IMG/VR virus record: IMGVR_UViG_2547132273_000014
Coordinates: 1-6,592 of that record
DNA: 6,592 bases
Source of the DNA: a virus
Taxonomy: Duplodnaviria; Heunggongvirae; Uroviricota; Caudoviricetes
Direction: 5' to 3' (one strand)
Numbering within the stretch: the stretch's first letter is position 1; every line of letters begins with the position of its first letter. The notes beneath the pieces were generated by a model that was not told where the DNA came from, made no database searches, and saw nothing but the letters and a program-made list of their open reading frames with translations. This document shows positions 866 to 6,592 of the stretch, piece after piece. A program made the position numbers and the translations under genes.

Positions 866-941
866 GGCCCCTTAGCTCAGTGGTTAGAGCAGGCGACTCA
901 TAATCGCTTGGTCGTTGGTTCAAACCCAACAGGGGCCACCA
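866..941 (+). tRNA. ileX: tRNA with CAU anticodon; by genomic position (downstream of rpoD-mug) the minor isoleucine tRNA (lysidine-modified)
   Basis: 76-nt cloverleaf: acceptor GGCCCCT/AGGGGCC, D-stem GCTC/GAGC, anticodon stem GGCGA/TCGCT with loop CTCATAA (anticodon CAT), T-stem GTTGG/CCAAC, discriminator A and encoded CCA (939-941). Isoacceptor identity (Ile2 versus Met) is inferred from context, not from the sequence alone. Confidence 0.85.
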
Positions 942-1007: not shown

Positions 1008-1266
1008 GTGACAGAGTATAAGCAGGTATAAAAACAACAAGTTACGCAACATCATACCTGTCATGAAACTTTAACTATCCGACATGATAGCTGGTCGATG
1101 ATCACGGATAATCCGTTATGTGGATCCCCATATCGGCATCAGGCCCACCAGCGTGAAGCGTTTTTCATTTTTCGCGGGTATAAAAAATCGATGGGGCTGG
1201 CAGTCCGGAAGACGTCAGGGTACAGAGATTTGACCCGCCCCTCCCTGTGCATGGGCACAATAAGTA

Positions 1267-1292
1267 ACCGAAGGCGGAATTCCGCCCTCGGT
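1267..1292. promoter_or_regulatory. 26-bp near-perfect palindrome (core GGCGGAATTCCGCC)
   Basis: ACCGAAGGCGGAATTCCGCCCTCGGT; 14-bp perfect core at 1273-1286, arms extend to 13 bp with one mismatched pair (1272/1287). No adjacent U-tract on either strand, so it is not an intrinsic terminator. Confidence 0.4.
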
Positions 1293-1326
1293 ACTCACAT
1301 ATGAGAAACGATATTTCTTCCTCTGA

Positions 1327-1397
1327 TACCCAAAATATGGGTATCACAAGTAACCCCCAAAATCTGGGTGTTGCTCTTACTACCCAAACTACGGGTA
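1327..1397. promoter_or_regulatory. Array of three 17-bp palindromic operator-like sites (YACCC-N7-GGGTR) at an exact 27-bp period
   Basis: TACCCAAAATATGGGTA (1327-1343), CCCCCAAAATCTGGGTG (1354-1370), TACCCAAACTACGGGTA (1381-1397). The centre-to-centre spacing is 27 bp twice and the spacers are A/T-rich. Confidence 0.5.
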
Positions 1398-1417
1398 GTT
1401 TCCGTAATTTCATGGTC

Positions 1418-1464
1418 GAGTTGCAGATCTGCAACTCACCCACCAGCCAACGCAATTTTGCGTT
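1418..1464. promoter_or_regulatory. 20-bp perfect palindrome GAGTTGCAGATCTGCAACTC (1418-1437) plus 7-2-7 inverted repeat AACGCAA-TT-TTGCGTT (1449-1464)
   Basis: Both are exact in the sequence and lie 20-65 bp downstream of the stop of the 126-aa minus-strand ORF. Neither is followed by a U-tract. Confidence 0.45.
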
Positions 1465-1482
1465 ATCGGGAATATCAGCAAG

Positions 1483-1863
1483 TTACCGCCGCAGCCGTTC
1501 CGGCTTCTTCCACTGGTAAGTATTTTTCGCGCTCTCCCTCCGTTGTTGAGAACGGCGACGGTATGCCAGCAACTCAAGGACTCTGGTTCGTATGTTGCAC
1601 ATATCCACGCCGTTAAGCTCAATACCATCACGGCGCATCACCTCAGCAACAACACGCGCGTAATTTTCGGCTATCACGCTGTCCGGCTGCGTGGCCTCCT
1701 GTTCGCCAGCCTGCTGGCTGATTCCGGTAATACTGCGGATTATCCCGAGCGCTTCGGTCTCGGTCATGGTCATGGTCATGGCCTCCATAGTGATGGCGGG
1801 TCCTCCTTGTGGGGTGCCCTGCCACGGGGCGGGAGCATCGCGGAAAAAGGCTAGTTTTTGCAT
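1483..1863 (-). CDS. Hypothetical protein downstream of the small terminase gene (start uncertain, likely internal at about 1773-1788)
   Basis: 126-aa ORF in the same orientation as the packaging genes, with a basic C-terminus. The first ATG (1863) lacks an RBS. A GGAGG at 1783-1787 precedes three tandem in-frame ATGs formed by (ATGACC)x3 at 1762-1779; the ATG at 1771-1773 has the best spacing (8 nt). I recognise no protein family. Confidence 0.4.
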   Translation of the reverse strand: MQKLAFFRDAPAPWQGTPQGGPAITMEAMTMTMTETEALGIIRSITGISQQAGEQEATQPDSVIAENYARVVAEVMRRDGIELNGVDMCNIRTRVLELLAYRRRSQQRRESAKNTYQWKKPERLRR

Positions 1864-2024
1864 TTTTATTCGTCATCACCACCAATGCAATATATTGATA
1901 TGACTTGATGTTTTATTTTTCGGTGTCGATTTCGATTGTTTTTTGTTCATCACTGACGCATAACGCCCACCAGCGCAACGCTGAAAGCCAGTCAGTAAAC
2001 TGGCTTCGGTCATTGTGCACTACG

Positions 2025-2574: not shown

Positions 2575-2745
2575 CCAACTTGGTCAAGGTTTCAGGTTGG
2601 TGTGTTGGTGTTATCTTTCCCTTTTTATTCATGGAGATAGAGCAAACAACAAAACCACCACCACCACCCTGAAAAAGCTCATAAATAGCGAAAAACCGCG
2701 AGGTCGCCGCCCCGTAGCCTACCGGATCGCCGGAAAGGACCCGCC
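2575..2745 (-). other. Lambda-type cos site: cosQ-like and cosN (12-nt cohesive end GGGCGGCGACCT, 2701-2712) with a divergent cosB-like region toward the TerS start
   Basis: The minus strand reads GGGTCCTTTCCGGCGATCCGGTAGGCTACG-GGGCGGCGACCT-CGCGGTTTTTCGCTATTTATGA, which is almost base-for-base the lambda right-end/cos/left-end sequence as I recall it (lambda: ...GGGTCCTTTCCGGTGATCCGACAGGTTACG GGGCGGCGACCT CGCGGGTTTTCGCTATTTATGA). The 130 bp between cosN and the TerS start do not resemble lambda cosB. Confidence 0.8.
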
Positions 2746-2768: not shown

Positions 2769-3152
2769 TCAACCAATCAACTTATAGCGACCATCCCGTG
2801 CATTGCGACGTACACGCTCAATCTTGAGGCATAGCGCCGCATCTGGCTTTTTTGGGACAGGTACGCGGCAATATTCAGAAGCTCGAGGAATATTGTTTAT
2901 CCAGTCGATCACTTCACTTAAATACCAGGCCTTACGCCCTTCCGTAACCTGTACGCGCTCGGGGAACTCTCCGCGAGCCTCAAGGTTTAGCAATGTGCGA
3001 CGGCTAAGGGTAGTAAGTTCCATCACCTGATTCATATCAACAAGGCGTTCACTTAAACGCATTTTGTCAGCAATAGCCTTTAATTCCTCTACTGCTGGAT
3101 CCGGATACATCATTTCGGCAATTGGCTTAAGGTCATTGTAATGATTCTGCAT
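2769..3152 (-). CDS. 127-aa DNA-binding protein with an AlpA/Vis/excisionase-type winged HTH (MerR superfamily), flanked by N- and C-terminal extensions
   Basis: Central motif MELTTLSRRTLLNLEARGEFPERVQVTEGRKAWYLSEVIDWI fits the AlpA/Vis-family pattern (L-x-x-LSR-x-T-L...G-x-FP-x-x-V...GR-x-A-W...E-V-x-x-WI). Strong RBS AGGGGG 5 nt upstream of the ATG at 3150-3152. The stop at 2769-2771 is about 25 bp before cosQ. Confidence 0.65.
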   Translation of the reverse strand: MQNHYNDLKPIAEMMYPDPAVEELKAIADKMRLSERLVDMNQVMELTTLSRRTLLNLEARGEFPERVQVTEGRKAWYLSEVIDWINNIPRASEYCRVPVPKKPDAALCLKIERVRRNARDGRYKLIG

Positions 3153-4772: not shown

Positions 4773-5195
4773 TTAAAACGGTATATTATCGCCGTACGGA
4801 TCATCATTCCCCGACTGTTGTTTTGCCCTGTTCAGTGCGTCAGTAGCCTGGCCCTGTTGACCTTTTTTGCCGCCCGGTCGCGCCGTTCTGGCACTGATTA
4901 CACTGTCTGCGATAACCTGCCAGCCCTGCCGCGTTTCGCCGTTCTGGCCTGTCCACTGGCTTACCTGCATGTTACCCGCCACGCTCACCAGTTCGCCTTT
5001 GTGGTGTTTTGCCAGTGCGTCGGCCTGTCTGCCAAACGCCAGGACGGATAACCACATCGTCGCCGTTCCGTCATCTGCCTGGCTGCACGGAAGTGGGACC
5101 GCCATACTCGCCATCGTCATTTGTGTACCCTTGCTGGTGGTCTTTAACTGCGGGTCAGCCACCAGCCGCCCGTAAGCCGCTATCTGTGCTGTCAT
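4773..5195 (-). CDS. Single-stranded DNA-binding protein (SSB)-like, with acidic C-terminal ...DNIPF tail
   Basis: 140 aa. The OB-fold region resembles E. coli SSB as I recall it: IAAYGRLVADPQLKTT against VILVGNLGQDPEVRYM; MWLSVLAFGRQADALAKHHKGELVSVAGNMQVSQWTGQNGETRQ against [45 protein letters not shown]. A Gly/Gln-rich linker leads to a terminal DDPYGDNIPF, compared with SSB DDDIPF. The start ATG overlaps the stop of the upstream ORF (ATGA). Confidence 0.72.
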   Translation of the reverse strand: MTAQIAAYGRLVADPQLKTTSKGTQMTMASMAVPLPCSQADDGTATMWLSVLAFGRQADALAKHHKGELVSVAGNMQVSQWTGQNGETRQGWQVIADSVISARTARPGGKKGQQGQATDALNRAKQQSGNDDPYGDNIPF

Positions 5196-5482: not shown

Positions 5483-5712
5483 CTTCACCTGTTCACCTTT
5501 TGATATTTTATCTTTTAATTCATAATGTTAAGGGGTGAACAGTTTCACAAAAACTATTCACCAACTGTTCACCACTGTTCACCCTTGAAGCTCAATAAAC
5601 AATCAAAAAGGTGAACAGTGAATAGTTTGGTGAACAGTTCATAAATAACTGTTCACCCTATAACATACTGATACAAAAGATATTTATGACAGGGTGAACA
5701 GTGGTGAACAGT
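5483..5712. repeat. Iteron array: at least 9 perfect copies of TGTTCACC / GGTGAACA (10-bp unit ACTGTTCACC) in both orientations; P4 ori/crr-like primase-binding repeats
   Basis: Forward TGTTCACC at 5490, 5566, 5576 and 5650. Reverse GGTGAACA at 5534, 5610, 5629, 5693 and 5703. Degenerate copies at 5483-5489, 5555-5562 and 5618-5625. Interspersed A/T-rich tracts (5461-5480, 5498-5530). The array sits directly after the stop of the primase/helicase gene. Confidence 0.8.
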
Positions 5713-5724
5713 TATTCCATAAGT

Positions 5725-6592
5725 TTAATTTTTGCTATCGTCATTAGTGACCGATACACATGATGGCATCCAGTCTTCTGATTCCTCCGTCAGTGTCACG
5801 TTTGAACGCAAACCGTGCTTCGTTTTCCGTTTCATATACTCCCTGCCATATTCCGCCATTGCCCCCGGCATATCTTTACCGAAGCGCGTCAGTGTTACAG
5901 GTTTACCAAACCCATGTGCCCTCATATAAGCCAGATAGGCATGATAGAGATACCTGCGTGGGCTGAATGGCACAATTTCAGCATTACCCACTAACAGGCC
6001 ATCACACATTACCGACGCCATGAGATAGCCGCAGAAGTCCACCAGCGAATCCCCCTCTCGCTTTATCGCCAGTGCTTCTTCAGATTTCTGCTGCTCATAT
6101 AACAGGCGTCTGGCTTCGTCCTGGTCAGCAAACCGTGTAAGCAGATGGCGAATCACTACCGCCAACTCACCTTCTATTTTTTCCGCCAGCATTGGATCGC
6201 GTTCGTTCTCCGGTACAACTTCCGAAAAATTGAATATCACCCGACGACGTGAGATCCCCCCGCTGCGGTCACTGAATGACATGGCGTTATTGTTAACCGC
6301 CAGCACTACTGCCGGAATACGCGTTGAGTAGGGGGCTTTGTGTTTCGGGTCAATTGCCACCTTGTCACCGCCTGTAATGGCCTTAATTCCTGCCCCATCA
6401 CCAGCGTAGCGGGTCATATCCGGCATGATAATCAGCGAAAAGCCAACCACTAACGCGCGTTCCCTTGCATCTTCCAGCGCCTTCATGCTTGCCGATACTG
6501 TGTTGGCCTTACCCGCCAGCATGGTGCAAATCTCCGCCATCACGCTTTTACCACTTCCCCCTGGACCTGTTACCTCAATGAATAACTGCCAG
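5725..6592 (-). CDS. P4-alpha-like primase/helicase, C-terminal helicase portion (5'-partial; continues beyond window end)
   Basis: The open frame runs to the window edge. Its translation contains the Walker A motif in ...WQLFIEVTGPGGSGKSVMAEICTMLAG... and downstream helicase-like motifs (LIIMPDMTRYAGD). It is immediately followed by the TGTTCACC iterons that are the recognition repeats of P4 alpha. The ORF-track start at 6543 is an internal GTG. Confidence 0.8.
   Translation of the reverse strand, partial: WQLFIEVTGPGGSGKSVMAEICTMLAGKANTVSASMKALEDARERALVVGFSLIIMPDMTRYAGDGAGIKAITGGDKVAIDPKHKAPYSTRIPAVVLAVNNNAMSFSDRSGGISRRRVIFNFSEVVPENERDPMLAEKIEGELAVVIRHLLTRFADQDEARRLLYEQQKSEEALAIKREGDSLVDFCGYLMASVMCDGLLVGNAEIVPFSPRRYLYHAYLAYMRAHGFGKPVTLTRFGKDMPGAMAEYGREYMKRKTKHGLRSNVTLTEESEDWMPSCVSVTNDDSKN

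What the first reader, a model, noticed from the sequence alone, without database searches (positions are those of the whole stretch)
1327..1397. Three 17-bp palindromic operator-like sites at an exact 27-bp period in non-coding DNA
The sites TACCCAAAATATGGGTA, CCCCCAAAATCTGGGTG and TACCCAAACTACGGGTA have centres at 1335, 1362 and 1389. The regular spacing and dyad symmetry are typical of cooperative binding by a dimeric regulator, but the array sits in a region without a confident gene, between the tRNA-proximal island end and the convergent 126-aa ORF. It may be an operator for a promoter I cannot identify, a binding array for a packaging, partition or recombination protein, or a series of small RNA hairpins.
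Basis: seen in the sequence. Interest (0 to 1): 0.7.

Follow-up and report, generated by a model that had tools for sequence, protein, structure and literature searches.

The report
Helper-phage gene palindromes copied into satellite
The three palindromes are real, and each matches a short palindrome found inside a variable stretch of a regulator gene (KilA-N family) of the phages this E. coli satellite island probably exploits, so they look like recognition sites the satellite borrowed from its helpers, not a local operator.

Summary
In detail: three dyads lie at 1327-1343, 1354-1370 and 1381-1397 with an exact 27-bp period, far above chance. They sit in the non-coding tail of a ~10.4-kb PICI-type phage satellite in tRNA-Ile of E. 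coli.

They form one 122-bp mosaic module (1322-1443) together with a perfect 20-bp palindrome (1418-1437). The module recurs in about 19% of complete E. coli genomes, in different satellite types and at four or more integration sites. It is not linked to any satellite gene or promoter.

Each palindrome of the module, and the adjacent hairpin 1267-1292, matches a palindrome in the hypervariable segment of a different allele of one phage gene. That gene encodes a KilA-N-domain regulator lying between rusA and Q in mEp460/SfV-type phages, which also share cos-like DNA with this tail. All eight divergent alleles sampled blind carry their strongest inverted repeat at that position, each with a different sequence. 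Window 1267-1353 is colinear with a Salmonella allele but has lost its reading frame.

Best reading (confidence ~0.4): captured recognition dyads for helper-encoded factors, most likely the KilA-N proteins, serving as a sensor or decoy. Rivals are RNA hairpins antisense to helper mRNA, and an inert relic.

The parts
1322..1443 (.). Mosaic module: three 17-bp dyads plus a 20-bp palindrome. It moves as one unit between satellites.
   Evidence: Identity to other satellites drops outside about 1297-1445. Three kinds of left flank and at least four kinds of right flank adjoin the same core. Found in a cf-PICI, in sister islands and in an excised circle.
1324..1346 (.). Site 1, TGATACCCAAAATATGGGTATCA. 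Arms GATACCC/GGGTATC, as in the D-TQNLG-I dyad of KilA-N alleles.
   Evidence: Phage counterparts are GATACCCAAAATCTGGGTATC (L356) and GATACCCAAAATTTGGGTATC (Salmonella allele P0035). The centre is hypervariable among satellites while the arms are kept. A compensated arm variant GACACCC..GGGTGTC occurs in L145.
1352..1372 (.). Site 2, AACCCCCAAAATCTGGGTGTT. It corresponds to the N-TQNLG-V dyad AACACCC-N7-GGGTGTT of mEp460-type alleles, with one arm mismatch.
   Evidence: mEp460 37334-37348. CCCAAAATCTGGGTGT is identical over 16 nt to class-1 site A. The L013 variant makes the site a perfect dyad.
1379..1399 (.). Site 3, ACTACCCAAACTACGGGTAGT. Arms ACTACCC/GGGTAGT, as in the T-TQNLG-S dyad of class-1 alleles. 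It overlaps a second palindrome at 1386-1401.
   Evidence: A 9-bp deletion removes its right arm in 7 IMG/VR loci and in L007, leaving AAACTAC-C-GTAGTTT.
1418..1437 (.). Perfect 20-bp palindrome GAGTTGCAGATCTGCAACTC. It matches the (S/T)-ELQICNS dyad of a further KilA-N allele class.
   Evidence: at least 61 phage-size contigs carry it at codons ~50-57 of the KilA-N gene. L448 has exactly CGAGTTGCAGATCTGCAACTCGG, and L473/L495 have a perfect 24-bp version.
1267..1292 (.). 26-bp hairpin ACCGAAGGCGGAATTCCGCCCTCGGT. It matches the TEGGIPP dyad of SfV/Salmonella-type KilA-N alleles. On the - strand it also looks like an intrinsic terminator.
   Evidence: SfV orf44 ACCGAGGGTGGAATTCCGCCTCTGG; colinear alignment of window 1267-1353 with the Salmonella allele, score 59 against 18.9+-2.9 for shuffles; terminator-like, 11 pairs, tail TACTTATTGT.
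1440..1447 (-). Chi site GCTGGTGG at the right edge of the module.
1449..1485 (.). Tail unit: hairpin AACGCAATTTTGCGTT (1449-1464) plus an IHF-like box TATCAGCAAGTTA (1473-1485). It is specific to satellite tails and has no KilA-N counterpart.
1483..1767 (-). Last gene of the late operon (94 aa as annotated, longest ORF to 1863). phrog_1561, function unknown. Its transcript would run through the module.
   Evidence: Only 16 of 46 loci with this gene have the module.
1163..1245 (-). Segment 92-95% identical to the HNH-terS intergenic region (HK97-type cos position) of SfII/ST64B/720R4-type phages.
866..941 (+). tRNA-Ile (anticodon CAT), the integration site. The island begins within its 3' half.

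Best explanation
The three palindromes belong to a battery of five dyad-symmetric DNA elements (1267-1437) that the satellite acquired from the variable segment of KilA-N-domain ('Bro network') regulator genes of temperate phages. Those genes lie between rusA and the late-gene antiterminator Q, so they should be expressed early in the lytic cycle. Every allele of the gene carries its own strong palindrome at the same codons. The satellite tail holds versions of at least four allele classes side by side, with none of the conserved coding sequence. I infer that the dyads are sequence-specific recognition sites for a helper-encoded dimeric factor, most simply the KilA-N protein binding a site inside its own gene. 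On that reading the satellite array is a multi-specificity landing pad. It would either report that a helper has entered lytic growth or, once the satellite has replicated, titrate the factor and so alter helper late-gene timing. Shown here: the sequence correspondence, the shared descent of 1267-1353, the universality of the intragenic palindrome, and the lack of linkage to satellite genes. Inferred: that a protein binds, which protein it is, and what binding achieves.
For: (1) All five window palindromes match the variable segment of distinct KilA-N alleles. Site 1 matches at 20/21 nt, site 2 over 16 contiguous identical nt and 19/22 overall, site 3 at 18/21, the 20-bp palindrome at 20/20, and the hairpin at about 22/26. 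(2) The outer arm triplets differ between sites (GAT/ATC, AAC/GTT, ACT/AGT), yet each pair stays complementary. They code D..I, N..V and T..S, so the protein does not explain them. (3) Blind test: in 8 of 8 divergent alleles picked by protein homology alone, the longest perfect inverted repeat of the domain-coding region (arms 7-12) falls at codons 51-75, with a different sequence each time. The same holds in 37 further proteins. (4) In 5 of those 8 the symmetry runs through the centre (gap 0-2), which an RNA loop would not require. (5) Compensated changes keep the dyads: synonymous GCT>GCC with AGA>AGG in the ST64B-type allele, CAGATCTG>CAAATTTG, and GATACCC..GGGTATC>GACACCC..GGGTGTC in a satellite copy. 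(6) Among satellites, site 1 keeps its arms while its centre varies. (7) The gene occurs in the same phages that share cos-like DNA with this tail: mEp460, PhiR40/47/55, 1720a-02, 720R4, 689R6, SKA5 (SfV carries the gene, and its relative SfII shares the cos-like segment). (8) The island encodes no KilA-N or Bro-family protein of its own. The module is also unlinked to island genes and att sites. (9) Precedent: lambda ori iterons are O-binding dyads of similar style lying inside gene O.
Against: No binding data exist for any KilA-N protein of this family, and nothing was found in the literature. In the AlphaFold model the palindrome-coded peptide is a low-confidence loop (pLDDT 56-62). So the dyad may merely be hosted in a permissive part of the gene, and the binder could be another factor. 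mEp460 has no second copy of its dyad elsewhere in its genome, so there is no regulon to support a regulator model. The 27-bp period is about 2.6 helical turns, which is not in phase for simple cooperative binding. Some satellites have lost the right arm of site 3, or site 1 altogether. SfV's own dyad is imperfect. Other tail palindromes have no KilA-N counterpart. Conservation of arms over spacers in an unbiased set of module copies was not clear-cut. Helper status of these phages is inferred, not shown.
Confidence: 0.4

Rival explanations
1. RNA-level function. The module lies in the 3' untranslated tail of the satellite late operon (- strand), which appears to end at the terminator-like hairpin 1292-1267. 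The transcribed hairpins would be antisense to the hairpins of helper KilA-N mRNAs, with identical stems and complementary loops. They could pair by loop-loop kissing to change expression of KilA-N and the downstream Q gene. Alternatively they simply protect or terminate the late transcript.
For: The position is immediately downstream of the last late gene in every satellite. No strong terminator lies before 1292-1267. Both strands fold far better than shuffles (z -7.7 and -7.2). Sites 2 and 3, the 20-bp palindrome and the hairpin keep the same orientation relative to phage sense strands, so the - strand RNA is antisense to all of them. Single-step arm variants are G.U pairs on the transcribed strand both in phages (GAUACCC..GGGUGUC) and in satellites (L128/L149). 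RNA regulatory sites inside a Bro-network gene are known for P4 eta/CI-seqA (PMC10111431).
Against: Many phage dyads are symmetric through the centre (gap 0-2 in 5 of 8), which RNA hairpins do not need. The centre of site 1, which would be the pairing loop, is hypervariable among satellites. The stems are short (5-9 bp) and lack U tracts, and only site 2 gives a weak terminator-like match. There is no Rfam match. Palindromes cannot reveal the functional strand. No expression data are available.
Confidence: 0.25
2. Inert relic. The tail segment is a decayed fragment of one or more KilA-N genes picked up by recombination with helpers. Palindromes persist only because they are recombination or template-switch hot spots, not because they work.
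For: Window 1267-1353 is colinear with the variable region of a Salmonella-type allele, including the spacer length (58 against 63 nt) and the '..AGTAA' after the dyad. The + strand still reads TEGGIPP, DTQNMGI, NPQNLGV, TTQTTGS and VELQICNS. Satellites and helpers demonstrably exchange DNA. Some copies have lost a site.
Against: No conserved KilA-N coding sequence survives next to the dyads in any of the module copies examined. Dyads from at least four allele classes that occupy the same codons in phages are lined up in tandem, which no single gene fragment can give. The module is kept at 90% identity or more in about 1,000 of 5,426 genomes and in three unrelated flanking contexts. Compensated changes preserve the dyads.
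Confidence: 0.15
3. Lambda-style replication origin. Three dyad iterons, a short spacer and a palindrome would be used by a helper replication initiator so that the satellite can also be copied by the helper.
For: The architecture resembles lambda ori, which has four 18-bp dyads (TCCCTCAAAACGAGGGAA and relatives) 20-24 bp apart inside gene O, then an AT-rich stretch and a palindrome. In five loci two module copies flank an iteron/AT-rich ori-like cassette.
Against: The phage counterparts lie in the KilA-N gene, not in or next to the replication gene. The 18-bp spacer is not a marked AT-rich unwinding element. The island has its own P4-type primase with nine GGTGAACA iterons.
Confidence: 0.07
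4. Packaging or integration accessory site: a terminase-binding cosB-like array for the SfII-type cos-like segment at 1163-1245, or arm sites for the integrase or excisionase.
For: The module is 80-230 bp from a cos-like segment and about 400 bp from the att core.
Against: The array is on the HNH side of that cos-like segment, where the phages have a gene, and no phage has the module. In the cf-PICI L005 the module is more than 2 kb from the terminase/HNH region. The module occurs with ileX, tqsA, hpt and prophage-capsid integration sites.
Confidence: 0.05
5. Operator of an island promoter, or a small protein gene (ORF 1301-1519, + strand, 72 aa).
For: Dyad symmetry and regular spacing. The ORF stays open in L005 and L007 (reading of the alignment).
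Against: No promoter-like site lies in or beside the array. There is no Shine-Dalgarno sequence before the ATG. There are no Pfam or PHROG matches. Most substitutions are non-synonymous. The open frame is explained by descent from coding DNA and by 27 being a multiple of 3.
Confidence: 0.03

Closest known systems
Lambda ori iterons inside gene O
   Same: Tandem 17-19-bp dyads with a C-run, an A-rich centre and a G-run, spaced 20-27 bp apart. They lie within a variable, structurally permissive part of a phage gene, are bound by a dimeric phage protein, and differ between lambdoid phages (plus established knowledge of O-some formation).
   Different: The phage gene here is a KilA-N regulator with only one or two dyads, not the replication initiator. 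The three-site array is in a satellite. There is no marked AT-rich unwinding region and no evidence of initiation.
HK022 Roi, which binds a site inside its own gene next to an IHF site (Clerget and Boccard 1996, J Bacteriol 178:4077; recalled from memory, the paper could not be fetched)
   Same: A Bro-network regulator encoded between the replication genes and Q, with an intragenic binding site. IHF-like boxes abound in the satellite tails.
   Different: Roi is Rha/ANT-type, not KilA-N. Its gene has no strong palindrome and none of these motifs. It is an analogy only.
Satellite mimicry of helper cis-acting sites (P4 and PICI cos sites; Rpp-redirected cosB)
   Same: A satellite carries copies of helper DNA signals so that helper proteins act on it (PMC6092414, PMC6739421; this island has a lambda-type cosN at 2701-2712 and an SfII-type cos-like segment at 1163-1245).
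   Different: The copied signals here are not packaging sites. They come from inside a regulator gene, and several alternative allele versions are stacked together.
P4 immunity RNA sites (CI, seqA) inside the Bro-network gene eta
   Same: Regulatory nucleic-acid elements embedded in the coding sequence of a Bro-network gene of a satellite/phage system (PMC10111431).
   Different: Those elements act as RNA within one element. There is no Rfam C4/isrK match here, and the elements here are shared between helper gene and satellite tail.
Lambdoid tripartite operators OR/OL
   Different: Operators overlap promoters and flank a repressor gene, with 23-24-bp spacing. Here there is no promoter and no adjacent regulator gene, and the spacing is 27 bp.

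Membership tests
Lambdoid-type tripartite operator | Dyads overlap or abut a promoter (-35/-10) | tested here: not met
   The sigma-70 scan of 850-2100 finds nothing within 1300-1450.
Lambdoid-type tripartite operator | A cognate repressor gene is adjacent and co-inherited | tested here: not met
   No regulator gene is adjacent. Islands with 99-100% identical HTH, capsid and decoration genes can lack the module.
cos site cosB (terminase small-subunit R sites) | Sites lie within ~50-200 bp of cosN, between cosN and terS | tested here: not met
   The lambda-type cosN is at 2701-2712, 1.3 kb away. Relative to the SfII-type cos-like segment the array lies on the HNH side, and the phages lack it.
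attP arm-type integrase/excisionase sites | Sites co-vary with one integrase and att site at a fixed distance from the core | tested here: not met
   The same module occurs at ileX, tqsA, hpt and a prophage capsid gene, and in an excised circle with a different integrase. Cargo genes are sometimes inserted between it and att.
Lambda-type origin (iterons + AT-rich region + palindrome) | At least 3 dyad iterons followed by an AT-rich unwinding region and a palindrome | tested here: inconclusive
   Three dyads and a 20-bp palindrome are present, but only an 18-bp unremarkable spacer separates them.
Lambda-type origin (iterons + AT-rich region + palindrome) | Cognate initiator encoded by the same or the helper element, with the origin in or beside its gene | tested here: not met
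   The phage counterparts lie in the KilA-N gene, about 2 kb from the replication gene. The island's own origin is the GGTGAACA iteron cluster at 5490-5710.
Intrinsic terminator / REP-like 3' hairpins | G+C-rich stem followed by a U tract on the transcribed strand | tested here: not met
   Only the hairpin at 1292-1267 qualifies. Of the three sites only site 2 gives a weak 5-pair match.
Known RNA families (Rfam 15, including C4/isrK of P4-like elements) | Covariance-model match | tested here: not met
   There is no match in 940-1500 even at E<=1.
KilA-N variable-segment dyad (class defined here) | Sequence match of arms and centre to the palindrome at codons ~50-75 of a KilA-N allele | tested here: met
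   All three sites, the 20-bp palindrome and the hairpin match distinct alleles.
KilA-N variable-segment dyad (class defined here) | Homology by descent with KilA-N variable-region DNA | tested here: met
   The colinear local alignment of window 1267-1353 with the Salmonella allele scores 59, against 18.9+-2.9 (max 30) for shuffles.
KilA-N variable-segment dyad (class defined here) | Bound by a KilA-N protein or another helper factor | not testable with these tools
   This needs EMSA or ChIP. The structure model places the coded peptide in a low-confidence loop, and the fold search found nothing significant.

The most novel reading that the evidence does not exclude
KilA-N ('Bro network') regulators of temperate phages form a self-referential specificity system. 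Each allele carries, in the codons of a permissive loop, the DNA dyad that its own product (or a partner) recognises, so that protein specificity and site cannot be separated by recombination. Phage satellites collect the dyads of many helper alleles in their tail as a multi-specific sensor or decoy. This would let one satellite detect, or retune the late-gene timing of, a wide range of helpers.
Probability: 0.3. Interest if true: 0.85.

Novelty: new variant of a known kind. Interest (0 to 1): 0.68.

Why it matters
How Gram-negative PICI-type satellites sense their helpers and adjust helper development is largely unknown. So is the function of the abundant KilA-N/Bro-network genes of temperate phages: this gene occurs in 42% of complete E. 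coli genomes. The link found here gives both problems a concrete, testable handle. It defines a set of short DNA elements shared between a helper early gene and satellite tails, and predicts partners that can be tested by EMSA, ChIP and deletion. If the dyads are recognition sites, this would be a new kind of helper-signal mimicry beyond cos sites. It would also explain why satellite tails are mosaics of palindromes. Independently of mechanism, the finding that every allele of a protein-coding gene keeps a different strong palindrome at the same codons is an unusual case of dual coding.

Tried and rejected
- Rfam at E<=1 found nothing in the region.
- The promoter scan found nothing in the array.
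- Tandem Repeats Finder found nothing.
- BLAST of the module against 50,697 phage records found no match at E<=1, because the shared dyads are only about 20 nt long.
- The plasmid collection returned only satellites mis-filed as plasmids.
- The architecture-only pattern (arms plus 27-bp period) in IMG/VR and in metagenomes found only homologues of this module, plus unrelated 27-bp tandem repeats. No independent family shares the layout.
- The genome-contig scan with the neighbouring protein gave only two loci, and neither had the module.
- The idea that the neighbouring 94-aa protein (phrog_1561) binds the array was dropped. Only 16 of 46 loci with the gene have the module, and the protein has no recognisable DNA-binding family.
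- Linkage to terS, HTH, capsid and decoration genes was rejected.
- HK022 Roi as a direct homologue was rejected. It is a different fold family, with no motif and no strong palindrome. The original paper could not be read.
- The comparison of third-codon diversity inside and outside the dyads had no power, and two of the three allele sets were biased by how they were retrieved.
- The comparison of arm and spacer variability among unbiased module copies was inconclusive and inflated by truncations.
- Two other tail palindromes (GACTATCT-N3-AGATAGTC and TAACGCAAAATTGCG) have no phage-gene counterpart, so the KilA-N link does not extend to every tail palindrome.
- PDB sequence and fold searches for the KilA-N domain gave nothing significant.
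- PDB sequence searches for the terS-like and 126-aa proteins gave nothing.
- Type III toxin-antitoxin and CRISPR-like repeat arrays were considered and dropped. No toxin or cas gene lies downstream, and the period is too short.
Full report
**Context.** The window is from an E. coli chromosome (100% identical to strain FDAARGOS_1262). It runs from the end of rpoD through mug and a tRNA-Ile with anticodon CAT (866-941). It then enters a ~10.4-kb phage satellite of the PICI type. The island carries a far-end integrase, an HTH_17 protein, a P4-like primase with nine GGTGAACA iterons, SSB, a major capsid protein, a lambda-D-like decoration protein, an AlpA-domain protein and a Nu1-like small terminase. 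Its last small gene is phrog_1561, of unknown function. A lambda-type cohesive-end sequence lies at 2701-2712 on the - strand. The finding sits in the ~540-bp non-coding tail between the tRNA and the stop codon of the last gene at 1483.

The three 17-bp sites are exactly where stated, with spacing of 27 and 27 bp. The motif YACCC-N7-GGGTR with up to one mismatch occurs 5 times in the window against 0.48 expected, and 0 of 200 shuffles reach 5. The only good matches in the whole 33-kb locus are these three.
- Site 1 is really a 23-bp palindrome with 9-bp arms (1324-1346).
- Site 3 has 7-bp arms and overlaps a second palindrome (1386-1401).
- Site 2 has one mismatch.
- Apart from the dyads the 27-bp units are dissimilar, and Tandem Repeats Finder reports nothing.

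**The functional unit is larger than the finding.** Comparison with other genomes shows that the three sites travel together with a perfect 20-bp palindrome, GAGTTGCAGATCTGCAACTC (1418-1437), as one ~122-bp module (1322-1443).
- Identity to related loci falls off outside about 1297-1445.
- The same core is joined to three kinds of left flank and at least four kinds of right flank.
- The region matches 1,043 of 5,426 complete E. coli genomes.
- It lies at the integrase-distal end of several different satellites: sister islands, a capsid-forming PICI in tqsA, an island embedded in a prophage capsid gene, an island at hpt, and a 10.79-kb excised circle filed as a plasmid.
- It is therefore independent of integrase and att site.
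- It is also independent of the late genes. Islands with 99-100% identical HTH, decoration and capsid genes may lack it, and only 16 of 46 loci with the upstream gene have it.
- No promoter-like site lies in it and no Rfam family matches.
- A search for the bare architecture (arms and period only) in IMG/VR and in metagenomes found only homologues of this module and unrelated 27-bp tandem repeats.
- Among satellites the arms of site 1 are kept while its 7-nt centre varies (AAAATAT, CAAATTT, TTTATTT, TATATTT, TGTATTT, CCAATTT). Sites 2 and 3 are almost invariant.

**The key result.** I scanned IMG/VR for two TACCC-N7-GGGTA sites at any spacing. This found 31 phage-size contigs in which GATACCCAAAATCTGGGT(A/G)TC and ACTACCCAAAATTTGGGTAGT lie 15 nt apart inside a 280-aa gene. 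The gene encodes a KilA-N-domain protein (Pfam E 4e-21; phrog_129 'transcriptional regulator'). It lies between rusA and a DUF968/HNH gene, just upstream of the late antiterminator Q, in the SfV/mEp460-type early region. There the dyads encode D-TQNLG-I/V and T-TQNLG-S.
- The mEp460-type allele has one dyad, AACACCCAGAATTTGGGTGTT, encoding N-TQNLG-V.
- Other alleles carry, at the same codons, CGAGTTGCAGAT(C/T)TGCAACTCG encoding ELQICNS. This is the module's 20-bp palindrome, exact in L448.
- SfV and Salmonella alleles carry ACCGAGGG(T/C)GGAATTCC..CCTC(T/G)GG encoding TEGGIP. This matches the window's hairpin at 1267-1292.

So window sites 1, 2 and 3, the 20-bp palindrome and the neighbouring hairpin each correspond to the variable segment of a different allele class of one phage gene. 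Sequences outside the dyads generally do not match. The window + strand still reads TEGGIPP, DTQNMGI, NPQNLGV, TTQTTGS and VELQICNS, but in broken frames and without any conserved KilA-N sequence. One stretch, window 1267-1353, is colinear with the variable region of a Salmonella allele: hairpin, ~33-nt spacer, dyad, '..AGTAA'. The local alignment scores 59 against 18.9+-2.9 for shuffles, with a maximum of 30. So at least that part shares descent with KilA-N DNA.

**The palindrome is a general property of the phage gene.** In 37 distinct KilA-N N-terminal proteins already held, the longest perfect inverted repeat of the 375-nt region always lay in the variable segment. SfV was the exception, because its dyad is imperfect. 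Those loci were partly selected through the palindromes, so I made a blind test. From a protein search (936 hits) I chose eight divergent alleles by protein alignment only and fetched their DNA. In 8 of 8 the longest perfect inverted repeat of the domain-coding region lies at codons 51-75. Arms are 7-12 nt and the sequence differs each time:
- GATACCCAAAATTTGGGTATC
- TAAATACTGAGATCTCAGTATTTA
- ATTTCCTCTTTGGAAGGAAAT
- ACTCCGGGAAACCCCGGAGT
- TACCGGAAATCCGGTA
- CCAATCGAAACTTCGATTGG
- AACTACCCAGGATTCGGGTAGTT
- ACTACGGGAAATTCCCGTAGT

The segment covers roughly a quarter of the region, so 8 of 8 is about 2e-5 by chance (my arithmetic).

Further signs of selection at the nucleic-acid level:
- The outer arm triplets co-vary (GAT/ATC, AAC/GTT, ACT/AGT) while coding unrelated residues.
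- In the ST64B-type allele, two complementary synonymous changes (GCT>GCC and AGA>AGG) convert CAAAGCTC..GAGCTTTG into CAAAGCCC..GGGCTTTG. Both versions also occur in satellite tails.
- The 20-bp palindrome exists with two different perfectly symmetric centres, AGATCT and AAATTT.
- A synonymous-codon shuffle that keeps the protein gives arms as long as observed in only 2% of trials per allele. This is a conservative null, since the peptide itself is shaped by the dyad.

**Candidate helpers.** The KilA-N gene is present in the same phages that share other DNA with this island's tail. These are mEp460, PhiR40/47/55 and 1720a-02 (window 1794-1900), and 720R4, 689R6 and SKA5 (window 1163-1245). 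That second segment is the HNH-terS intergenic region, where HK97-type cos sites lie. SfV carries the gene, and its relative SfII shares the cos-like segment. The gene occurs in 2,293 of 5,426 complete E. coli genomes. The island itself encodes no KilA-N or other Bro-network Pfam domain. Helper status is inferred from shared cis-like DNA and has not been demonstrated.

**How it most likely works.** What is shown: the dyads are selected at the DNA or RNA level in the phage gene, and the satellite has stacked versions of at least four allele classes in tandem without the coding context. The module is conserved, mobile and unlinked to satellite genes.

What I infer: sequence identity, and not mere structure, between phage and satellite copies points to sequence-specific recognition by a trans-acting helper factor. 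The simplest candidate is the KilA-N protein itself, since the domain is a predicted DNA-binding fold (established knowledge). It would bind a dyad in its own gene, where it could act as an autoregulatory roadblock upstream of Q. There are precedents for protein-binding dyads hosted in a variable part of the binder's own gene. One is lambda ori in gene O, annotated as four 18-bp iterons 20-24 bp apart coding IPQNEG..SLKLGD..PSKQGD. Another, from memory, is HK022 Roi. The satellite array would then be a landing pad that senses several helper types, or a decoy after satellite replication.

DNA-level symmetry is favoured because 5 of the 8 blind alleles are symmetric through the centre (gap 0-2). 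An RNA hairpin would leave those positions free. It is also favoured because the centre of site 1 is free to vary in satellites.

Cautions:
- The coded peptide is a low-confidence loop in the AlphaFold model (pLDDT 56-62 between helix 48-62 and strand 80-83), so the dyad may simply be hosted in a permissive loop and the binder may be something else.
- mEp460 has no second copy of its dyad elsewhere in its genome.
- 27 bp is not an integral number of helical turns.
- Some satellites lack one site.

I put this mechanism at about 0.4.

**Rivals.**
- RNA model (about 0.25). The module lies in the 3' tail of the late operon, which seems to end at the terminator-like hairpin 1292-1267. The - strand RNA would be antisense to helper KilA-N mRNA hairpins, with the same stems and complementary loops, as in loop-loop antisense systems. 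Single-step arm variants are G.U pairs on the transcribed strand in both phages and satellites. RNA control sites inside a Bro-network gene are known for P4 (PMC10111431).
- Inert relic (about 0.15). This is supported by the colinearity. It is opposed by the tandem stacking of mutually exclusive allele versions, the absence of any conserved coding remnant, the wide conservation and the compensated changes.
- Lambda-style origin, cosB or att accessory site, local operator, and small ORF are each unlikely, for the reasons given in the rival and membership tables.

**Comparison with what is known.** Satellites are known to copy helper cos sites (PMC6092414, PMC6739421). Bro-network genes are known as domain-swapping regulators that can host regulatory RNA sites (PMC10111431). 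I found nothing on intragenic palindromes of KilA-N genes or on their presence in satellite tails. I therefore class this as a new variant of a known kind, namely helper cis-element mimicry by a satellite. It comes with an unexpected dual-coding feature in the helper gene.

**Verdict.** The most informative result is the one-to-one correspondence with the variable-segment palindromes of helper-phage KilA-N genes. Function remains to be shown by binding, deletion and transcript-mapping experiments.

Noticed in passing
window 2701-2712 (- strand), with 2025-2570 and 2769-3152: The exact lambda 12-nt cohesive-end sequence GGGCGGCGACCT lies between an AlpA-domain gene and a Nu1-like small terminase gene. 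This is the island's lambda-type cos site, followed by lambda-like sequence (CGCGGTTTTTCGCTATTTATGA).
   Followed up: partly
window 1163-1245: An 83-bp segment is 92-95% identical to the HNH-terS intergenic region of SfII, ST64B, 720R4, SKA5 and related phages, the position of HK97-type cos sites. The island may therefore carry a second, different cos site for another helper family.
   Followed up: partly
window 1794-1900: This stretch is about 85-90% identical to the right end (just before cos) of mEp460, phi458 and PhiR-type lambdoid phages. It overlaps the start of the long form of the phrog_1561 ORF.
   Followed up: no
window 1145-1152, 1440-1447, 1967-1974, 5159-5166, 6039-6046 (- strand) and 5133-5140 (+ strand): There are six Chi sites (GCTGGTGG) in 6.6 kb, five of them on the coding and packaging strand. 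That is well above the E. coli average, and two of them bracket the tail elements.
   Followed up: no
window 915-930 (T-arm of tRNA-Ile, 866-941): The T-arm differs from my recollection of K-12 ileX by four changes that keep the stem paired (GTTGG..CCAAC against GCTGG..CCAGC). This is consistent with the island supplying the 3' half of the tRNA.
   Followed up: partly
window 5490-5710: Nine P4-type iterons (GGTGAACA) in both orientations lie between the primase gene and the 81-aa gene. This is the island's own replication origin.
   Followed up: no
L071-L153, 0-1000 bp downstream of the phrog_1561 gene: Satellite tails are mosaics holding 82 distinct strong palindromes in 52 tails. They include repeated units of an IHF-consensus box plus a variable hairpin, and arrays of five GTGAC repeats at 10-11-bp spacing. 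Most have no phage counterpart in the scans made.
   Followed up: partly
L113 1000-1500 (also L019, L119, L145, L190): Two copies of the palindrome module, 434-436 bp apart, flank an origin-like cassette: GCGGGTTAT x3, an AT-rich stretch with (TA)n, then TAACCCGC x3. Recombination between the copies would give the single-copy arrangement seen in the window.
   Followed up: no
L151 (NZ_CP148328.1, 1-10790): A 10.79-kb 'plasmid' is an excised circular satellite with an integrase, AlpA, a primase, a protease-capsid fusion, DUF1441 and the phrog_1561 gene. The module lies about 500 bp upstream of int across the attP junction.
   Followed up: partly
L007 7203-9320: A related island is inserted in the major capsid gene of a lambdoid prophage and carries an abortive-infection gene between the att end and a decayed copy of the module.
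   Followed up: no
L562 and 53 other IMG/VR contigs: A Rha-type phage regulator gene (..NVVRDIERTIEACPPEFDTKLNFELCYKNNELQNGK..) contains the palindrome CAAAGCTCAAAGTTGAGCTTTG. This suggests that intragenic dyads may be common in Bro-network genes beyond KilA-N.
   Followed up: no
L157, L169, L170, L174, L176, L196, L221 (freshwater metagenomes): These contigs hold unrelated tandem arrays of a 27-bp hairpin unit, AGTACCCCCTTGAGGGGTGCTCTTTTC, with up to six or more copies. The architecture-only pattern picked them up.
   Followed up: no
L017, L023, L042, L047, L049 and others (IMG/VR contigs of 35-58 kb that hold the module): Some module-bearing satellites lie inside much larger predicted viral contigs. 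This suggests satellites adjacent to or embedded in prophages.
   Followed up: no
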